Assembly (NCBI GenBank): GCA_049968235.1
Contig: JBMFRC010000020.1
Coordinates: forward strand, 1 to 59,355
Source of the DNA: Candidatus Hydrogenedens sp.
GTDB taxonomy: Bacteria > Hydrogenedentota > Hydrogenedentia > Hydrogenedentales > Hydrogenedentaceae
DNA: 59,355 bases
Direction of reading: 5' to 3'
Position numbers and translations under genes: made by a program. This document shows, in pieces, positions 8,646-59,355 of this stretch (its first letter is position 1; each line of letters starts with the position of its first letter). The notes beneath the pieces were generated by a model that was not told the DNA's origin, ran no database searches, and saw nothing but the letters and a program-made list of their open reading frames with translations.

Positions 8646-11600
8646 TTACAATTCTAATAGTTCTTTTATTTTTTGAGTTAATATCTGAATAGAAAAAGGT
8701 TTTTTAATCAAATGTTCTTCTTGTAAAAGTTGTTTATTTTGCAGATTAAGTTCATCTGTATAACCTGAGATAAATAGTGTTTTTAAGGATGGGATAAATT
8801 CTTCTATTTTTTTAGATAAATCAAAGCCATTCATTACAGGAAGAACGATATCAGAAATGAGTAATTTTATCTTATTTTTATTTTCTTTAGCGCGTTCCAG
8901 AGCCTCTATCGGGTCAGTTGTCAAAATAGGTTCGAAGCCCATTCGTGAAATAATCTTGTTTAATATTTCTAAGACAGTTTTTTCATCATCTATTATTAAT
9001 ACTGCTCCTCTTTTTTCTTCTGGTATTTCATAGAGTTGTATATCCCAATTTTCTGTGCTATTTTCTTCTTCACCTTTTTCATTTTTATATCTCGGAAGAT
9101 AAATCGTAAAAGTAGTCCCCTTTCCTGGTATGCTTTCTACGGTAATGAATCCGTTGTTTTGTCTGACAGTTCCATAGACCGTTGCCAGACCTAAACCTGT
9201 TCCCTCTCCTTGTTTTTTTGTAGTAAAATAGGGTTCAAATATTTTAGGCATAATTTCCGGGTCAATCCCCATCCCTGTATCAGAAACACGAAGGATAACA
9301 TACTCCCCATGAAGAAATCCCGGAATATTTGTATTAAATGTTGTTTCTGTTTTTCTATTTGCCACTTCGATAGTAATCTTACCTTCAGTAGGTATAGCAT
9401 CACGGGCATTTACACAAAGGTTAAGCAATATAATATCCAGATGAGAAGGGTCTAAATAGACATTCCATAAATCTTCGCAGGGTGTCCATTCAATATATAT
9501 CCTCTCAGGAATAACCCTTCTTAACAATTTAATATATGTCGAAATTTCGTTGTTTAAATTAAGAACCTTCGGTTTTATATCCTGTTTTTGCCCAAAAGCA
9601 AGTATCTTTTTAGTTAATTCAGAAGCACGTTCTACTGCTTTTCGGATTTCTTCAAGATTTTCTTTAATGGGCTCTCCTGTCTCCGATTTTAGTATTGACA
9701 ATTCTATATTACCTACAATTACACTTAACATATTATTAAAATCATGGGCAACACCTCCTACTAATTTTCCGATGGTATCTAATTTCTGACAGAGAACTAA
9801 TTGCTTCTGCATTTCTTCCTTATCTTTTTCTTCCTTTTTTCGTTCGGTAATATCAGATAAGATATGAATGAACCCGACCAATTGATTATTATCAAGAACA
9901 GGGTCAACAACTACTTCAAACCAGCGGTCATCTTTGCGAAATTCTAAAGTTTCTCTTTTCCTTGATTTTAACAGACGAATAACAGGACAGAAAGAAGGGG
10001 CTTCACGAGTTTCATGGACAATCTCCCAACATTTCTTGCCGAGAACTTCATCTGGAGTTAAATGGAATAATTTAATAATGGCATTATTGGTTCGTGTTAT
10101 TTCAAAATTCTTATTCAAAAACCATATAACACTATTAATATTGTCATAAGCGATTTGCCATTCTCTATTTAATCTTTTAATTTCTTCTTCAAATTTTTTC
10201 TTCTCCGTTATATCTGTAAATACACATGCAAAACGATTTTCTCCTGTCTTAAATGCATGAACAAGATAATGGCGATTTAAAGAATTCGTAAACATCTCAA
10301 ATGTTACAGGATTTCCTGTGATGACAACCTGTGCATAGGTCAATATCCAGAACTGCTCGATATTGGGTAAAACTTCTTTTACTGTTTTCCCGAGGATATT
10401 TTGTAATTTTAATCCTGTCATCTTTTGAAATGCATCATTAGCAACGAGAAAACGATAATCTACAGGAATGCCATGTTCATCAAATATGAATTCATGTTCG
10501 GCAAATGCTTCCTGCATGGATTCAAATAAATTTTTATAGTTCTGCTGTAATTTTCGTGTTTCTGTAACATCCTGTAATGTTCCATAAACCCCAATAATTT
10601 TTTCTTCCGTATCCCGCAATGGTGCGATAAATGCATTAAATATTTTTTCTTCTCCCGAAATAGAAAGGGTAAAATCTGAATTTTGATATATATTCCCCTT
10701 GAGGACTTCTTTGCATATGGAAATAAATTTTTCCGCAGAAGATTCATCAAAAAGTTCAGTATCATTAAATATACCAAATTCCTTATGGTTTTTATTAAAA
10801 AAATTTGCGTAGGATTTATTTACGCGAATATATTGTAAATTTTCACCTTTTATGAAAACACCGGAAGGTATTGCGTCCAGTATACTTGCCCATTTTAATT
10901 CTTCTGTAACCTTTTCTCTTATCTTTTGTTCTAATAATTCCTTCGTTTGGATTAGGTTTTTTTCTAATTTTGTTTTCTGATAAAGATTAATAACATGTTC
11001 TGTTGTAATGGGTTCTTTGATAATGGCAGAAACCCCTTTTTTAAGCCAATAAACCAATTCTTTTCTTGATTTTCCATGAAGTATTGCGATAACGACTGTA
11101 TTTGCATTTTTTTCGGCTATCTTTTTTATTAGTAGTGTGGGGTCTTCATATAATTTGTGAGAAATAACCACCAAATCATAATTTTTTTCAAGAAAAGATT
11201 TAATTGCTTGTTTAATAGTCGCAACATGCTCAATTTTATATTTGCTCATAGGAATAACCGCACAAGATTCATTTGTGCATTGAGTACAGGGGGCAACCCA
11301 TAGAATATTTGTAACTTCTTCTTTTCTTCTATCTTCAAAGACTTTACGAATTTTGGCAAATAAAATTTCCGGTTCGATAGGCATTTCGATAAAATCATCT
11401 GCACCTGCTTCATGAGCCGTTTTCAGTATTCCGTCTCCCAGAAACACAGAAGATACAATTAAAATCGGAACTTCTTTTGTATATGGCATTACATCAGAAC
11501 GAAGGCAACGGCATAATTCCCAGCCATTGATTTCAGGCATATAAATATCTGTTATCACTATATCGGGAGGAGTATCCGGGTTAATGTTCATTAAAGCCTG

Positions 11601-54418: not shown

Positions 54419-54450
54419 AAAAAAAATAAATGCCCCCACTGGGAGGGCAT
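54419..54450 (-). terminator. intrinsic terminator of the tracrRNA
   Basis: Minus-strand RNA AUGCCCUC-CCAGU-GGGGGCAU: 8-bp stem (one G-U), 5-nt loop, followed by UUUAUUUUUUUU. Confidence 0.6.
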
Positions 54451-54492
54451 TGGCTACCTTTTACGGATACCCTTACGCAGCAGAACTCCTTA

Positions 54493-54528
54493 CTATGTTA
54501 AGAGGAGAAATGCTCGCTCTGCTATAAT
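54493..54528. repeat. solitary degenerate CRISPR repeat copy, inverted relative to the array (encodes the tracrRNA anti-repeat)
   Basis: CTATGTTAAGAGGAGAAATGCTCGCTCTGCTATAAT versus the reverse complement of the array repeat, GCTATGTTTTGAGGGAAGTGCTCGCTCTGCTATAAT. The 3' 18 nt and 5' 7 nt are identical; the middle is diverged. Confidence 0.75.
54520..54528 (+). promoter_or_regulatory. putative cas9 promoter: extended -10 TGCTATAAT contributed by the degenerate repeat
   Basis: Perfect TGnTATAAT on the + strand, 116 nt upstream of the cas9 ATG. No recognisable -35. Confidence 0.35.
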
Positions 54529-54536
54529 CTTTTTTA

Positions 54537-54565
54537 ATTATAGCAAAAAAAAATTGAAATGTCAA
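54537..54565 (-). promoter_or_regulatory. tracrRNA promoter (consensus sigma70 with extended -10)
   Basis: On the minus strand: TTGACA (54565..54560), exactly 17 nt spacer, TGCTATAAT (54545..54537). The predicted TSS is about 54530, at the first nucleotides of the anti-repeat. Confidence 0.6.
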
Positions 54566-54643
54566 ATTATATTTGGTAAATTATTTAATATAATTATTGA
54601 CAAATTTTTATTTTTAACCAAACACAAAAAAAGGAGAAAGAGA

Positions 54644-57600
54644 ATGAACAATACAGATAACTTTGATAACTTTAGTCCTTATACATTAGGTCTTGATTTA
54701 GGTTCCAATTCTATCGGTTGGGCACTTATTAAATTAGATGAGAACGATAATCCCTGTGGAATTGAGAAGGTGGGTGTTCGCGTATTTGAGGCGGGTATGG
54801 AAGGTCAGTATGAAAGTGGAAAAGAAGAATCGCGAAATAAAAAAAGAAGGGATGCCCGGTTAGCTCGTCGTCAATATGAACGCCGTGCTCGAAGGTATCG
54901 TAAGTTAGCAAACTTACTTCAGAAGATAGGATTACTTCCGGAGGGCGATATGAATAATAGTTTAGAAAGGCAAGCCATTCTGGATACATTAGATAAGGAA
55001 TTACGTTCCAGATATATTAATCCCAATCTTCCTGAAGAAGAAAAAAATCGACTGAACCAAATATTTATCTATTACCTCCGTTCATTGGCAGTCGAGCAGA
55101 AGTTAGAACCGTTTGCATTAGGACGTATCCTATATCATTTATGTCAGAGACGCGGATTCTTAAGTAATCGTCGTGGACAAAAACAAGATGATGAAGAACG
55201 AGGAAAAGTAAAGGAAGGAATCGCCGAAATTCGACAGGAAATGAGCCGATTAGGTGCAGAAACACTCGGTAGATATTTTGCTAAAATTGACCCTCTTGAA
55301 AAACGAATACGCGGGAGATGGACTGCCCGTGATATGTATGAACAAGAATTCTATACTATCTGGGAACACCAGGCAAAATATTATCCAGAACTACTCAACG
55401 ATACAAATAAAAAACAAATCTTCCGTGCAATATTTTTTCAACGCCCCTTAAAATCGCAAAAAGATAAAATTGGGTTTTGCCAGTTTGAATGTATCAAACT
55501 AGGTGCCCAACGCAACCGTCGCCGGGCTCCATGGTTTATACTCAAAGCACAAAGGTTCAGATTGCTACAAAAAGTGAATGATTTGTTAATTGTAGAAGAT
55601 AAGTTTACAAAAAGACCTCTCACAGATGATGAACGAAAAATAATTATAGACCATCTTGAAAAATATGGAGATGAAACCTTTGCACAATTGCGCAAACTGT
55701 TGGGTTTGAAAAAGACAGTAAAATTCAATCTGGAAGAAGGTGGAGAAAAGAAAATTCGTGGAAATAGAACCGCAGGTGCTATTCGTGAAGTTATCGGTGA
55801 ACTATGGGACAACATGCCGGATGCGGAGCGGGATAAACTTGTTGAAGATATATATTCCATTGTCAGTAATAAAGCATTAAAGAAACGATTAATAAACCAT
55901 TGGAAATTCACAGAAGAACAAGCAGAAAAATTATCGGAAATAAGCATTGAAGATGGTTACTGCAATCTATCCCGTCAGGCAATTGATAAATTCCTGCCTG
56001 GACTGGAATCGGGAAAACACTATTCTACATTAGTCAAAGAAATTTATGGGATAGATGACATTAATATCATAGTTAACCTGTTACCCCCCTTAGAATCCGC
56101 CCCTATTGGCGAAATTCGGAATCCAACCGTAACACGAACATTGGCGGAAATGAGAAAAATCGTTAACGAACTTGTAAAACGATATGGCAAGCCAAAGTTT
56201 ATTCATATTGAAACTGCACGAGATTTAAGGAATACAAAAAAAGAACGAGAGAAGATTTGGAAAAATAACAGATATTTGGAAGAAGTTCGTGAAAAAATAA
56301 AAAAAGACCTGATAAGTAAAGGTATCTCCAATCCAACAAATGATGATGTTGAACGATATATGTTAGCAGATGAGTGTGGTTGGGTTTGTCCTTATACAGG
56401 TCGTTCTATTAGTTTTAATGCCTTATTTGTCGAATCTCAATTCGATATAGAACATATAATTCCGCTCAGCCGCTGTCTCGATAATTCATTCAAGAATAAA
56501 ACATTGTGTTATCACGAGGAAAATAGGAATAGAAAGCATAATCAAACGCCGTTTGAAGCCTATGGCTCAAATGAAACACAATGGAATGAAATTTTAAGAA
56601 GGGTCGAAAATTTTAGTTCGATATACGCAGTAGAAAAATTAAAACGATTTAAAATGCACGGGGAAGATTTAGACGAATTCATCGATAAGTTTTCTGCATC
56701 TCAATTAAATGACACGCGCTACGCTTCGAGAGAAGCAAGAATATACTGTGCTTTGCTATACGGAAAAGAATATCGAAAACATGTATTCACCGTATCTGGT
56801 TCAACAACAGCAGTCATACGGCGTATGTGGGATTTGAATAAGATATTAGGTAGTGCGGAAAAAAATAGAGAAGACCATCGACAGCATGCTATCGACGCTA
56901 TCGTAATTGCCCTGACTTCACCTGCAATGATAAAGAGCATTTCCCAACAGGCAGAAAAAATCCCGAAAGATACCCCCAAACGATACCGCTGGTGGAGACA
57001 TATTAAACCGCCATGGGATACTATCTTTAACGAAGCCCATGAAAAAGTGCTGAATATTATTGTCTCACACCGTCCCGAACGAAAAGTGAGCGGTAGACTT
57101 CATGAGGAAACAAATTACAGTCCACCCAAACCCGGTGATAAAGAAGGAGAAACCGTTGTTCATGTAAGAAAATCTTTAAGTAATATTTCTAAGGGTGAGA
57201 TAGAAGAAATTGTTGACCCGGTTGTTAGGGAAACAGTAAAAAAGAAATTAGAAGAATTGGGGGGAGACCCGAAAAAAGCCTTTGCTGACCCCGCGAATTA
57301 TCCATTAATGCCCAATAAGAAAGGACTTCATATACCTATACGCCATGTGCGTATTCGTAAAAAAATGAATGTTTTCCCCATAGGCAAAAATGAACGAATT
57401 CGTTATGTCGCCACAGATGAAAATCACCATGTGGAAATTTTTGAGACAAAAGATAAAAAAGGAAAAACCATCTGGGATGCTAATGTGGTCAGCATGTTCG
57501 AAGCAATGCAACGAAAGAAAGAGGGCAAAGAAATTATCCAGCGAAAACTTATCCGCGATGGGAAAGTTGTCGAAGATGCAAAATTCCTCTTTAGCCTCTG

Positions 57601-57844
57601 CAAAGGAGATGTGGTTTACATGAAAGAATTGTATGATGAAAACAAATATGAATACTTTAAATTAATAAAAATGGATATAAACTGTGTATTTATGTTTCTT
57701 CCAATTTACATGGCAAAAATACCACAAAAAAATGGTAAGAAGGATTTTACAGGATTAACAAGAAAACCAAGTTCTCTTTTAACTTCTGATGCAAAGAAAT
57801 GTTCTATCAATGTTTTAGGAGAAGTGCAAATAGCACATGACTGA
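54644..57844 (+). CDS. cas9: Cas9, type II-C (1066 aa)
   Basis: RuvC-I LGLDLGSNSIGWAL (Asp18). Arg-rich bridge helix RRDARLARRQYERRARRYRKL. RuvC-II IHIETARD (Glu523). HNH FDIEHIIP...N (His604, codon 56453..56455). RuvC-III HHAIDAIVIA (His748/Asp751). The ATG at 54644 lies 7 nt after AAGGAG. The ORF-track start at 54554 adds a spurious 30-aa extension. Confidence 0.9.
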   Translation: MNNTDNFDNFSPYTLGLDLGSNSIGWALIKLDENDNPCGIEKVGVRVFEAGMEGQYESGKEESRNKKRRDARLARRQYERRARRYRKLANLLQKIGLLPEGDMNNSLERQAILDTLDKELRSRYINPNLPEEEKNRLNQIFIYYLRSLAVEQKLEPFALGRILYHLCQRRGFLSNRRGQKQDDEERGKVKEGIAEIRQEMSRLGAETLGRYFAKIDPLEKRIRGRWTARDMYEQEFYTIWEHQAKYYPELLNDTNKKQIFRAIFFQRPLKSQKDKIGFCQFECIKLGAQRNRRRAPWFILKAQRFRLLQKVNDLLIVEDKFTKRPLTDDERKIIIDHLEKYGDETFAQLRKLLGLKKTVKFNLEEGGEKKIRGNRTAGAIREVIGELWDNMPDAERDKLVEDIYSIVSNKALKKRLINHWKFTEEQAEKLSEISIEDGYCNLSRQAIDKFLPGLESGKHYSTLVKEIYGIDDINIIVNLLPPLESAPIGEIRNPTVTRTLAEMRKIVNELVKRYGKPKFIHIETARDLRNTKKEREKIWKNNRYLEEVREKIKKDLISKGISNPTNDDVERYMLADECGWVCPYTGRSISFNALFVESQFDIEHIIPLSRCLDNSFKNKTLCYHEENRNRKHNQTPFEAYGSNETQWNEILRRVENFSSIYAVEKLKRFKMHGEDLDEFIDKFSASQLNDTRYASREARIYCALLYGKEYRKHVFTVSGSTTAVIRRMWDLNKILGSAEKNREDHRQHAIDAIVIALTSPAMIKSISQQAEKIPKDTPKRYRWWRHIKPPWDTIFNEAHEKVLNIIVSHRPERKVSGRLHEETNYSPPKPGDKEGETVVHVRKSLSNISKGEIEEIVDPVVRETVKKKLEELGGDPKKAFADPANYPLMPNKKGLHIPIRHVRIRKKMNVFPIGKNERIRYVATDENHHVEIFETKDKKGKTIWDANVVSMFEAMQRKKEGKEIIQRKLIRDGKVVEDAKFLFSLCKGDVVYMKELYDENKYEYFKLIKMDINCVFMFLPIYMAKIPQKNGKKDFTGLTRKPSSLLTSDAKKCSINVLGEVQIAHD

Positions 57845-58730
57845 ACATATTATAGACCTGTCCGAAGAAGGTGGACGGCTGAATATCGATTTAGAACGAT
57901 TAGCAATAACACAAGGGGAGAAGGAATTTTTTATTCCCTTAGCAGAAGTATCTGTGGTAATTGTTTCACATCCGGCTGTAACTTTAACACAACCCGTATT
58001 GTCCGGCTTAATGAAGTATGGAGCCGTATTTATTACCTGTGATGAAAAACGAATGCCCATCGGTATGATGTATCCATTAGTGGGACATCATCTACAAATG
58101 GAAAAATTAAAATATCAGATAGAAGCCTCTTTACCTATACGCAAACGAGCATGGCAACAGATTATTAAATCAAAAATTCAAGCACAGGGAAACTTATTAT
58201 TAGAATTACACGGAGACGATAAAGGTCTAATTCCATTAGCAGAACGCGTGCAGTCCGGTGACCCGGATAATGTGGAAGGACTGGCAAGCAGGAAGTATTG
58301 GAATTTTTTATTCCCAGCCGAATTTGAGTTCCATCGAAATCCAGAAGCAGGGGGAATTAATGCCCTGCTGAATTATGGATATGCTATTCTACGCGGGATT
58401 ACAGCAAGAGCCATCGTTAGTGCAGGGCTAAATCCAAGTATCGGCATTCATCATCACAACCGATATAATCCGTTTTGCCTCGCTGATGATTTAATGGAAC
58501 CCTATCGACCCATTGTAGATTTTGCTGTGGTGAAGTTTATGCGGGGAAAAGATGCCTTTGTTGAACTAAATAAAGAAGCAAAACAATTTCTGATACAAAA
58601 TTTGATGAAAAAATATAAAATGAATGATGAAGAACGAAACTTGTTCGATATTACTTTTAGAACCGCTGTATCCCTTGCTCAGATGTTTGAGGGAAAAAGA
58701 AAAACATTAATACTCCCTGAAATTGTATAA
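57837..58730 (+). CDS. cas1: Cas1 (type II)
   Basis: Motifs CDEKRMP, LNYGYAIL, DLMEPYRP are shared with type II Cas1. An 8-nt overlap with the cas9 stop indicates translational coupling. Confidence 0.9.
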   Translation: MTEHIIDLSEEGGRLNIDLERLAITQGEKEFFIPLAEVSVVIVSHPAVTLTQPVLSGLMKYGAVFITCDEKRMPIGMMYPLVGHHLQMEKLKYQIEASLPIRKRAWQQIIKSKIQAQGNLLLELHGDDKGLIPLAERVQSGDPDNVEGLASRKYWNFLFPAEFEFHRNPEAGGINALLNYGYAILRGITARAIVSAGLNPSIGIHHHNRYNPFCLADDLMEPYRPIVDFAVVKFMRGKDAFVELNKEAKQFLIQNLMKKYKMNDEERNLFDITFRTAVSLAQMFEGKRKTLILPEIV

Positions 58731-58849
58731 ATATAATCCATGGCTAAAAAAGCCACGAACTTGCAAATTAAGAACAAATTAAACCATGAAAAGCCATGAG
58801 CAAGAAAAAAGATAAAAATAAAAAACCTCAAATATCAGGATATAAATCT

Positions 58850-59155
58850 ATGTGGATGATCGCTATGTTCGATTTACCTGTGGAAACAAATGAAGACCGA
58901 AAACATGCTACGCAGTTTCGAAATTTGCTATTAAGAGAAGGATACTCCATGTTGCAGTTTTCCGTTTATGGCAGATATTTCCCAAGCGAAGAAGCAAGTG
59001 AACCCTATAAAAAAAGAATTCGTCAAAGTATTCCACCACGAGGAGAAGTCCGACTCCTCTATATTACTGATAAACAGTTCGAGAAAATGGAAATCTTCGT
59101 GTCAAAAAAGAAACGAAAAGCAGAAGAACCTACCCCACAATTACTACTTTTTTAA
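58850..59155 (+). CDS. cas2: Cas2
   Basis: MWMIAMFDLPV...RNLLLREGYSMLQFSVY matches the Cas2 core (MLVLVTYDV-type start). The ATG at 58850 lies after AGGA. The ORF-track start at 58796 adds a Lys-rich 18 aa without an SD. Confidence 0.8.
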   Translation: MWMIAMFDLPVETNEDRKHATQFRNLLLREGYSMLQFSVYGRYFPSEEASEPYKKRIRQSIPPRGEVRLLYITDKQFEKMEIFVSKKKRKAEEPTPQLLLF

Positions 59156-59175
59156 TAAAAAATCCTCCCTTTTTA

Positions 59176-59190
59176 ACTATGTTTGAGGGA
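59176..59190. repeat. partial degenerate inverted repeat fragment between cas2 and the array
   Basis: CTATGTTTGAGGGAT matches the first 16 nt of the reverse-complement repeat (CTATGTTTTGAGGGAA) with one T deletion and one substitution. Confidence 0.4.
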
Positions 59191-59204
59191 TTTATAAATT
59201 TTAG

Positions 59205-59355
59205 ATTATAGCAGAGCGAGCACTTCCCTCAAAACATAGCTTATCCATTAGCAACTCTCTAACGGTTACCATTATAGCAGAGCGAGCACTTCCCTCAAAA
59301 CATAGCAGACTCGAATTGACATTGACACCACCGACAATTATAGCAGAGCGAGCAC
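59205..59355. CRISPR. CRISPR array, 36-bp repeat ATTATAGCAGAGCGAGCACTTCCCTCAAAACATAGC, 30-bp spacers; truncated by the window end; probably transcribed on the minus strand
   Basis: Identical repeats at 59205..59240 and 59271..59306, and a partial one at 59337..59355. Spacers at 59241..59270 and 59307..59336. The minus-strand form of each repeat ends in TGCTATAAT. Confidence 0.9.

What the first reader, a model, noticed from the sequence alone, without database searches (positions are those of the whole stretch)
59205..59355. Each CRISPR repeat carries a perfect extended -10 promoter, giving a leader-independent array transcribed toward cas2
Read on the minus strand, the repeat is GCTATGTTTTGAGGGAAGTGCTCGCTCTGCTATAAT, so every repeat ends in TGCTATAAT, an exact TGnTATAAT element. 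This mirrors the Neisseria meningitidis/Campylobacter II-C arrangement (repeat ending TGCTACAAT), where each repeat fires its own crRNA transcript starting inside the downstream spacer and no leader promoter is needed. It also fixes the array orientation as minus, matching the minus-strand tracrRNA, and predicts crRNAs as about 24 nt of spacer followed by the GCUAUGUUUUGAGG... repeat.
Basis: partly seen in the sequence, partly recalled or inferred. Interest (0 to 1): 0.7.

Follow-up and report, generated by a model that had tools for sequence, protein, structure and literature searches.

The report
Promoter built into each CRISPR repeat
The window ends in a type II-C CRISPR-Cas9 locus of an uncultured Hydrogenedens-like bacterium whose repeats each end in a consensus promoter element, an arrangement already shown experimentally in Neisseria and Campylobacter, so this is a new example of a known design.

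Summary
The last 151 bases hold two full 36-nt repeats and one cut repeat, with 30-nt spacers. Read on the minus strand, each repeat ends in TGCTATAAT and has TTGAGG 16 nt upstream. The minus-strand orientation is fixed independently by a tracrRNA gene upstream of cas9, which has a consensus promoter, a 36-nt anti-repeat and a terminator.

Across 55 distinct repeats from 60 related cas9-cas1-cas2 loci, the four key -10 positions (T-12, A-11, A-9, T-7) are invariant or nearly so, even in hosts with up to 72% GC. The anti-repeat copy shares the RNA-pairing constraint but loses the last T in 8 of 40 cases, against 0 of 40 repeats. Degenerate repeats lie only at the cas2-distal end, so spacers enter next to cas2, as in known II-C systems.

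Repeat-embedded crRNA promoters were shown in N. meningitidis and C. jejuni in 2013 and are now treated as a general II-C trait. This is a new member of a known kind, of low interest.

One side observation: the cas2-array leader carries a conserved inverted partial repeat that can pair with the adjacent repeat.

The parts
54537..54565 (-). tracrRNA promoter: TTGACA, 17-nt spacer, TATAAT, preceded by TG
   Evidence: The scan gives 12 of 12 matches with TG. The -35, the -10 and TGn are conserved in 9 close relatives. A comparable promoter ends 5-9 nt before the anti-repeat in 33 of 53 related loci.
54419..54530 (-). tracrRNA gene, about 110 nt. The start is predicted at A54530 or G54529. The anti-repeat is 54528..54493, the terminator stem 54451..54429, then a T run.
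   Evidence: Read from the sequence. Terminator from the scan. Fold gives a 3' hairpin, -32.7 kcal/mol, z = -2.2. The region is nearly invariant in relatives.
54644..57844 (+). cas9, 1066 aa
   Evidence: TIGR01865 Cas9, E = 5.8e-224. Catalytic D18, H604, N627 and D751 are invariant in the alignment. The best solved relatives are the 6KC8/6JDQ group, E = 7e-80, which I know to be N. meningitidis Cas9.
57837..58730 (+). cas1, type II (NMENI) class
   Evidence: TIGR03639, E = 3.5e-80.
58796..59155 (+). cas2
   Evidence: TIGR01573, E = 1.9e-19.
59156..59204 (.). Leader in the acquisition sense: the 49-nt cas2-array spacer region, which ends in TTAG next to the first repeat. It contains an inverted partial copy of the repeat's 5' end at 59177-59190 (CTATGTTTGAGGGA).
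   Evidence: Conserved in 9 clade loci. Forms a 14-bp helix with the adjacent repeat: 93.7% of cells paired against 21-56% when slid, with 2 compensatory pairs.
59205..59240 (-). Repeat next to the leader. The -10 TGCTATAAT is at 59213..59205 and the -35-like TTGAGG at 59232..59227. Its promoter would fire into the leader at about 59200-59198.
59241..59270 (-). Spacer, by inference the newest. The predicted crRNA start is at about 59266-59264.
   Evidence: The start site is inferred from the -10 position and from Nme and Cje data (PMC12477760, PMC3656092). No match in IMG/VR.
59271..59306 (-). Repeat. The -10 TGCTATAAT is at 59279..59271 and TTGAGG at 59298..59293.
59307..59336 (-). Spacer. 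The predicted crRNA start is at about 59332-59330.
   Evidence: No match in IMG/VR.
59337..59355 (-). Third repeat, cut by the window end. Only its 3' 19 nt (crRNA sense) are present, including TGCTATAAT at 59345..59337.

Best explanation
This is a type II-C CRISPR-Cas9 locus laid out as tracrRNA (minus), then cas9-cas1-cas2 (plus), then the array (read on minus). Every 36-nt repeat is itself a compact sigma-70-type promoter: TTGAGG, 16 nt, TG-n-TATAAT, with the -10 hexamer filling the last six bases of the repeat. RNA polymerase is predicted to start about 5-7 nt into the downstream spacer. Each spacer would then get its own primary transcript: about 24-25 nt of spacer followed by the next repeat (GCUAUGUUUUGAGG...). 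That repeat pairs with the tracrRNA anti-repeat and is loaded into Cas9, with RNase III trimming the 3' side at most. Transcription runs from the old, cas2-distal end towards the new, cas2-proximal end. Internal promoters therefore let the newest spacers be expressed without a long read-through transcript. Shown here: the sequence elements, the strand, the locus architecture, family-wide conservation of the -10 key bases, and the polarity of repeat decay in relatives. Inferred: that the element fires in vivo, where transcription starts, and that no outside promoter is needed.
For: - Motif and its position in all three repeats. Such strong sites are rare in the window.
- The orientation is fixed independently by the tracrRNA promoter, anti-repeat and terminator.
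- In 55 distinct repeats from 60 related loci, repeat positions 31, 32, 34 and 36 are T, A, A, T with 2.0, 2.0, 1.9 and 2.0 bits. The hexamers are TACACT, TACAAT, TACATT, TATACT, TATAAT and TATATT, plus one TACGCT. Positions 9-11 are TTG, and 7 loci have a perfect TTGACA at the same 16-nt spacing.
- These bases stay fixed in hosts of 35-72% GC.
- Internal control: the anti-repeat copy upstream of cas9 is under the same pairing constraint but loses the final T in 8 of 40 distinct cases, against 0 of 40 repeats (Fisher p = 0.005).
- The same loci use consensus sigma-70 promoters for the tracrRNA, so the hosts read such signals.
- Degenerate repeats occur only at the cas2-distal end, which is the polarity described for II-C (PMC12080349, PMC12477760).
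- Experimental precedent with the same geometry: N. meningitidis (PMC12477760, PMC5965381), C. jejuni (PMC3656092) and C. cellulolyticum (PMC7038990).
Against: - There are no transcript data for this organism or any close relative.
- The perfect TATAAT is partly what an AT-rich genome would drift to: the match to TATAAT falls as locus GC rises (Spearman rho = -0.43, p = 7e-4), and TGNTATAAT is not rare in the window.
- The conserved end of the repeat is also the end that abuts the leader, where Cas1-Cas2 integrates. Part of the conservation could therefore serve integration rather than transcription.
- TG at -15/-14 is present in only 13 of 55 related repeats.
- The cas2-distal end of this array is outside the window, so an outside promoter cannot be excluded. 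In relative L006 a gene reads towards the array from that side.
Confidence: 0.8

Rival explanations
1. The array is transcribed as one long pre-crRNA from a promoter beyond its cas2-distal end, or by read-through from the neighbouring gene, and is cut by RNase III with tracrRNA. On this view the TAnAnT end of the repeat is conserved because Cas1-Cas2 recognises the leader-proximal repeat end, and its likeness to a -10 box is incidental or of minor effect.
For: The conserved end abuts the leader-repeat junction, where integration occurs in II-C (PMC12080349). The distal flank of this array is not in the window. In L006 a minus-strand ORF reads towards the array. The full 36-nt repeat:anti-repeat duplex, with 18 perfect pairs at the distal end, is a good RNase III substrate.
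Against: The invariant positions are exactly the informative positions of a -10 hexamer, and a TTG or TTGACA sits at -35 spacing. Several relatives carry TGn as well. The same geometry is a proven promoter in Nme and Cje (PMC12477760, PMC3656092). Integration and promoter roles do not exclude each other, and in Nme internal promoters and RNase III processing both operate (PMC5965381).
Confidence: 0.12
2. The match is a chance product of AT-rich sequence, copied into every repeat only because CRISPR repeats are identical copies of one another.
For: TGNTATAAT occurs 10 times in the window against 6.0 expected, so it is common. The three copies in the array are not independent observations.
Against: The chance of the motif at one given position is about 5e-5 (derived). 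The T-A-n-A-n-T end is kept in 54 of 55 distinct repeats across hosts up to 72% GC.
Confidence: 0.02
3. The crRNAs come from the plus strand, the same direction as the cas genes, so the minus-strand motif is irrelevant.
For: Read-through from cas2 would enter the array on the plus strand, and no strong terminator was detected between cas2 and the array.
Against: A plus-strand crRNA would need a tracrRNA on the plus strand at 54493-54528. That RNA would have no 3' hairpins and would run into cas9. The minus-strand tracrRNA, by contrast, has a consensus promoter, the anti-repeat at its 5' end and a terminator. This layout recurs in 53 related loci.
Confidence: 0.01

Closest known systems
Neisseria meningitidis type II-C CRISPR-Cas9 (Zhang et al. 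2013; PMC12477760, PMC5965381)
   Same: Both have cas9-cas1-cas2 only, 36-nt repeats and 30-nt spacers, and an array read towards cas2. In both, the -10 box fills the last bases of the repeat (Nme TGCTACAAT, here TGCTATAAT), and 12 of the last 15 repeat bases are identical by my own comparison of the two sequences. New spacers enter at the transcriptionally last, leader-adjacent repeat. The closest solved Cas9 structures are the NmeCas9 group.
   Different: Here the hexamer is the perfect consensus TATAAT and a -35-like TTGAGG sits 16 nt upstream, whereas the Nme repeat has no TTG at that place. The middle of the repeat is unrelated. The phmmer match to the PDB sequences I take to be NmeCas9 is E = 7e-80, and its best stretch covers query residues 143-768. 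The host is an uncultured Hydrogenedentota bacterium. Here the leader carries an inverted partial repeat, which I could not check in Nme.
Campylobacter jejuni minimal type II-C CRISPR (Dugar et al. 2013, PMC3656092)
   Same: Each repeat ends in an extended -10-like box (GGTAAAAT). Primary crRNA transcripts start inside each spacer, at position 5. RNase III and tracrRNA make only the 3' end.
   Different: The repeat sequence is different. Transcription is shown experimentally there and only predicted here.
Clostridium cellulolyticum and Flavobacterium type II-C arrays (PMC7038990, PMC10309648)
   Same: In both, the array is read opposite to the cas genes. The terminal nine nucleotides of the C. 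cellulolyticum repeat resemble an extended -10. A repeat-encoded TTG about 35 bp upstream of each spacer is proposed for Flavobacterium, matching the TTG at repeat positions 9-11 here.
   Different: In those systems the promoter role is likewise mostly inferred, and the hosts and repeat sequences differ.
Type II-A arrays (S. pyogenes type)
   Same: Both use tracrRNA-dependent Cas9 with spacer-repeat crRNAs.
   Different: II-A arrays are transcribed from one leader promoter, spacers enter at the first transcribed repeat, the repeat has no -10 box at its end, and a fourth gene (csn2) is present. None of this applies here.

Membership tests
Type II-C CRISPR-Cas | The operon holds cas9, cas1 and cas2 only, with no csn2 or cas4 | tested here: met
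   ORFs at 54644-57844, 57837-58730 and 58796-59155 match Cas9, type II Cas1 and Cas2. Upstream lie gltX and a ROK kinase on the other strand, and downstream is the array.
Type II-C CRISPR-Cas | A compact Cas9 (about 1000-1100 aa) of the II-C sequence group | tested here: met
   The protein is 1066 aa and matches TIGR01865 at E = 5.8e-224. Its best solved relatives are the 6KC8/6JDQ group, which I know to be NmeCas9. Sources name its homologues type II Cas9.
Type II-C CRISPR-Cas | A tracrRNA with an anti-repeat complementary to the repeat, followed by 3' hairpins and a terminator | tested here: met
   The anti-repeat is at 54528..54493, with 18 perfect pairs and then an interrupted duplex. The terminator is at 54451..54429. 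The gene is conserved in relatives. No Rfam family matched.
Type II-C CRISPR-Cas | The array is read opposite to the cas genes, with spacer acquisition at the transcriptionally last (cas-proximal) repeat and decay at the distal repeat | tested here: met
   The strand follows from the tracrRNA logic. In relatives with complete arrays, mutated repeats lie only at the cas2-distal end in arrays that follow cas2 (14 loci in all; 12 of these arrays follow cas2), and the cas2-proximal repeat is intact in every array that follows cas2. For the window itself the distal end is cut off.
Repeat-embedded crRNA promoters (Nme/Cje kind) | A -10 box, usually extended by TGn, fills the last 6-9 nt of every repeat in crRNA sense | tested here: met
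   TGCTATAAT is found at the 3' end of all three repeats.
Repeat-embedded crRNA promoters (Nme/Cje kind) | The promoter-critical bases are held fixed among diverged relatives beyond what RNA pairing requires | tested here: met
   T31, A32, A34 and T36 are invariant or nearly so in 55 repeats. The anti-repeat copies lose T36 in 8 of 40 cases against 0 of 40 repeats.
Repeat-embedded crRNA promoters (Nme/Cje kind) | Primary (5'-triphosphate) transcripts start about 5-6 nt inside each spacer | not testable with these tools
   This needs dRNA-seq, 5'-RACE or primer extension, and no transcript data are available.
Repeat-embedded crRNA promoters (Nme/Cje kind) | crRNAs are made without an outside leader promoter and without a need for RNase III | not testable with these tools
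   This needs genetics or a heterologous assay. The distal flank of this array is outside the window.

The most novel reading that the evidence does not exclude
The 49-nt leader between cas2 and the array holds a conserved inverted copy of the repeat's first 15 nt (59177-59190). It would be transcribed from the leader-adjacent repeat's own promoter. It could act as a functional RNA or DNA element specific to this clade in one of three ways. It could fold back on the last repeat to stop or insulate transcription leaving the array towards cas2. It could give a short anti-repeat-like RNA that competes with tracrRNA for crRNA handles. It could be a structural signal for Cas1-Cas2 integration. A survey of over 650 II-C systems reported no leader-repeat hairpins, but it examined the opposite (upstream) flank of the array (PMC12080349).
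Probability: 0.15. Interest if true: 0.45.

Novelty: new member of a known kind. Interest (0 to 1): 0.2.

Why it matters
The locus adds little that is new. It extends a mechanism proven in two pathogens to an uncultured phylum (Hydrogenedentota) and, through the comparison made here, to a large II-C clade found in MAGs labelled Planctomycetota, Acidobacteria, Chloroflexota, Zixibacteria, Nitrospirae, Lentisphaerota and other phyla. This supports the current view that self-promoting repeats are a general II-C trait. In practice it fixes the crRNA strand, the likely guide length (about 24 nt) and the tracrRNA boundaries. That is what anyone wishing to reconstitute this Cas9 as a tool would need.

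Tried and rejected
- **Rest of the array:** I looked for it through the exact Cas2 protein. This gave only a 3.5-kb contig that also breaks in the array. Close relatives in metagenomes mostly break there too.
- **Protospacers:** 22-nt seeds of both window spacers have no match in IMG/VR. The 65-repeat array of relative L009 has no match in GenBank phages. There is therefore no PAM and no independent check of strand from targets.
- **Rfam:** nothing in the window reaches any family's threshold.
- **Zhang et al. 2013 (PMC3694421):** the paper is not held, so I relied on later open papers that restate its results.
- **Terminator in the leader:** a conventional hairpin (48-56 with 72-81 of alignment A3) is no better than slid controls, so I dropped it.
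- **Repeat ends as terminal inverted repeats:** positions 4 and 33 do not covary, by inspection, so I did not pursue this.
- **Plus-strand TGCTATAAT in the anti-repeat as a selected cas9 promoter:** its conservation is explained by pairing with the repeat, and relative L009 has lost the TG. I left it as a side note.

Full report
**What is in the sequence**

The window ends in a CRISPR array. Full 36-nt repeats lie at 59205-59240 and 59271-59306. A third repeat starts at 59337 and is cut by the window end after 19 nt. The spacers are 30 nt. The reverse complement of the repeat is GCTATGTTTTGAGGGAAGTGCTCGCTCTGCTATAAT. All three copies therefore carry TGCTATAAT at their minus-strand 3' end.

The promoter scan also reports TTGAGG, a 16-nt spacer and TATAAT with an upstream TG in both complete repeats, 10 of 12 consensus positions. 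Over the whole 59-kb window only seven sites on both strands reach that score with a TG. Three of these are the two repeats and the tracrRNA promoter.

TGNTATAAT on its own is common in this 36% GC DNA: 10 were seen against 6.0 +/- 2.5 expected. A single match proves nothing, and the three array copies are not independent. The chance of the motif at one fixed position is about 5e-5.

**The locus**

Upstream of the array lie cas9 (54644-57844, 1066 aa), a type II cas1 (57837-58730) and cas2 (58796-59155). There is no csn2 or cas4, and the neighbours are gltX and a ROK kinase. This is the type II-C gene set. The closest proteins are labelled Candidatus Hydrogenedens (up to 99% identity for a partial sequence, 83% for a full one). 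The closest solved structures are the 6KC8/6JDQ group (E = 7e-80), which I know to be N. meningitidis Cas9.

**Strand of the crRNA**

The orientation does not rest on the promoter motif. Just upstream of cas9, on the minus strand, there is a perfect TTGACA-17-TATAAT promoter with TG (54565..54537). About 7 nt after it comes a 36-nt anti-repeat (54528..54493). Its first 18 nt pair perfectly with the 3' half of the minus-strand repeat, and the rest forms an interrupted duplex with the repeat's 5' half. Then follow about 40 nt, a GC-rich hairpin (54451..54429) and a T run.

This is the standard build of a tracrRNA, and it requires the crRNA to be the minus-strand transcript of the array. The array is therefore read towards cas2. 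The whole tracrRNA region, including the -35, the -10 and TGn, is almost invariant in nine relatives with 74-83% Cas9 identity. A plus-strand crRNA would need a tracrRNA with no 3' hairpins that runs into cas9, so I reject that reading.

**Comparative test**

I collected 88 related loci from metagenomes and genomes. Sixty of them have a recognisable array, always with 36-nt repeats and about 30-nt spacers. In almost all of them the array lies downstream of cas2 in the same orientation. They give 55 distinct repeats, with Cas9 identity to the window from 39 to 99%.

In crRNA sense:
- Positions 31, 32, 34 and 36 are T, A, A and T in 55, 55, 54 and 55 repeats. These are positions -12, -11, -9 and -7 of a -10 hexamer, which I know to be the positions that carry most of the information in sigma-70 promoters.
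- The hexamers are TACACT (26), TACAAT (8), TACATT (7), TATACT (6), TATAAT (5, the window's clade), TATATT (2) and TACGCT (1).
- TG at -15/-14 is present in 13 of 55 repeats.
- Positions 9-11 are TTG in most repeats, at 16-nt spacing from the hexamer. Seven loci have a perfect TTGACA there.
- The fixed bases persist in hosts from 35 to 72% GC. The overall match to TATAAT falls with GC (rho = -0.43), so the perfection of the window's motif owes something to base composition.

**An internal control**

In 53 loci a copy of the repeat's 3' half sits about 80-100 nt upstream of cas9 on the plus strand. This is the anti-repeat of a divergent tracrRNA, as in the window. It shares the RNA-pairing constraint with the repeat but not any constraint that acts on the repeat as DNA in the array. 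Among 40 distinct copies the final T is lost in 8, whereas none of the 40 matching repeat tails has lost it (Fisher p = 0.005). Something beyond pairing therefore holds that base in the repeats.

In 33 of 53 loci a TTGACA-like -35 and a TAnnnT -10 end 5-9 nt before the anti-repeat. Hosts of this clade thus read sigma-70 consensus signals for the partner RNA.

**Polarity**

Mutated repeats are found only at the cas2-distal end in arrays that follow cas2. In all, 14 loci have mutated distal repeats; 12 of these arrays follow cas2, and the other two (L032 and L062) start directly after cas9 and also have mismatches at the first repeat. The repeat next to cas2 is intact in every array that follows cas2. 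For example, L007 has four perfect repeats and then two with 9 mismatches each, and L006 is a complete two-repeat array. The 49 nt between cas2 and the first repeat are conserved within the clade.

This is the published II-C arrangement. Spacers enter at the transcriptionally last repeat, next to a leader needed for acquisition. Each repeat has its own promoter. The first, extra repeat accumulates mutations (PMC12080349, PMC12477760, PMC13187072).

**How it most likely works**

Each repeat recruits RNA polymerase. Transcription starts 5-7 nt into the next spacer. The transcript carries about 24-25 nt of spacer and the following repeat, pairs with tracrRNA and is bound by Cas9. RNase III may trim the 3' side. 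The geometry, with the hexamer ending on the last base of a 36-nt repeat before a 30-nt spacer, is the same as in N. meningitidis (repeat GTTGTAGCTCCCTTTCTCATTTCGCAGTGCTACAAT; start at the 6th nt of each spacer; PMC12477760) and C. jejuni (repeat ends GGTAAAAT; start at position 5; PMC3656092). I put this at about 0.8. No transcript evidence exists, and the conserved repeat end is also the end that meets the leader, where the integrase acts.

The main rival, at about 0.12, is that an outside promoter or read-through plus RNase III does the work and the motif mainly serves integration. The two roles are compatible, and in Neisseria internal promoters and RNase III processing coexist (PMC5965381).

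**Comparison and novelty**

Repeat-embedded promoters were shown in Neisseria and Campylobacter in 2013. They have been noted in C. cellulolyticum (PMC7038990) and Flavobacterium (PMC10309648), and recent papers state them as a general feature of II-C (PMC12080349, PMC13187072). The defining sequence features are met here. The defining functional features (primary 5' ends inside spacers, independence from a leader promoter and from RNase III) cannot be tested with sequence tools. I file this as a new member of a known kind, with an unusually clean consensus and in an uncultured phylum. Interest is low. 'Leader-independent' should be read as transcription only, because an acquisition leader is present.

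**Side observations**

- The plus strand of the anti-repeat carries its own TGCTATAAT (54520-54528) pointing at cas9. It overlaps the tracrRNA promoter, with the two -10 boxes 8 nt apart on opposite strands. Its conservation is explained by pairing, and relative L009 has lost the TG.
- The leader holds an inverted copy of the repeat's first 15 nt (59177-59190). With the adjacent repeat it forms a 14-bp helix that appears in the minimum-energy fold. In nine clade loci 93.7% of cells are paired, against 21-56% when slid, and two pairs change on both sides. The sample is small and the signal weak (12 of 500 shuffles reach it).
- Several distant loci have either a similar complement or a strong hairpin right after the last repeat. 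A device that stops transcripts leaving the array towards cas2 would fit the model, but I could not establish this.

Noticed in passing
window 54520-54528 (+), facing 54537-54545 (-): The plus strand of the tracrRNA anti-repeat carries its own TGCTATAAT pointing towards cas9. It lies 8 nt from the tracrRNA -10 box on the other strand, so the two would be overlapping divergent promoters. It is conserved in relatives, but pairing with the repeat explains that, and L009 has TA instead of TG.
   Followed up: partly
window 59177-59190 (leader 59156-59204): An inverted partial copy (CTATGTTTGAGGGA) of the repeat's 5' end lies 14 nt from the first repeat. It forms a 14-bp helix with the leader-adjacent repeat. 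The helix is conserved in 9 clade loci and has two compensatory pairs. Its function is unknown.
   Followed up: partly
leaders (60 nt before the first repeat) of L055, L051, L038, L067, L020, L049, L069, L043, L028: Many distant II-C loci have a strong perfect hairpin, or a segment complementary to the repeat's 5' half, immediately after the cas2-proximal repeat. These may be terminators or insulators between the array and cas2.
   Followed up: partly
window 54554-54582 (+): TTGAAATGTCAA is a near-palindrome that holds the tracrRNA -35 (minus strand) and a plus-strand TTGAAA, 17 nt, TAAATT with TG. It is a candidate cas9 promoter set back-to-back with the tracrRNA promoter, and is partly conserved in relatives.
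   Followed up: partly
L001 3332-3433 compared with window 59205-59306: The contig's Cas2 is identical to the window's and its partial Cas9 is 99% identical. Yet its repeat differs at 3 of 36 positions (GCTTTGTTTTGAAGGAAGTGCCCGC...), and one of the changes is mirrored in the leader copy. The last 29 nt after its second repeat are a T-rich low-complexity stretch.
   Followed up: no
L005 about 10340-10520: A direct duplication of about 50 nt (ATACGCCCTTCTTCCATCAC..GGAATTATAAATATAAATAAATA) lies between cas1 and cas2 and lengthens that spacer region relative to the other loci.
   Followed up: no
L010 5715-5832: A 38-nt direct repeat, with copies 80 nt apart, duplicates the 3' part of the tracrRNA gene upstream of cas9.
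   Followed up: no
L032 9120-9615, L062 9280-9710, L078 9172-9535: These arrays start directly after cas9 with no cas1 or cas2 between, and several of their repeats are mutated. They look like decaying loci or loci unable to acquire spacers.
   Followed up: no
L009 10871-15192: A close relative (76% Cas9 identity), whose genome is labelled Nitrospirales, has at least 65 identical repeats, all with the intact TGCTATAAT, and the array runs off the stored locus. None of its spacers matches GenBank phages.
   Followed up: partly
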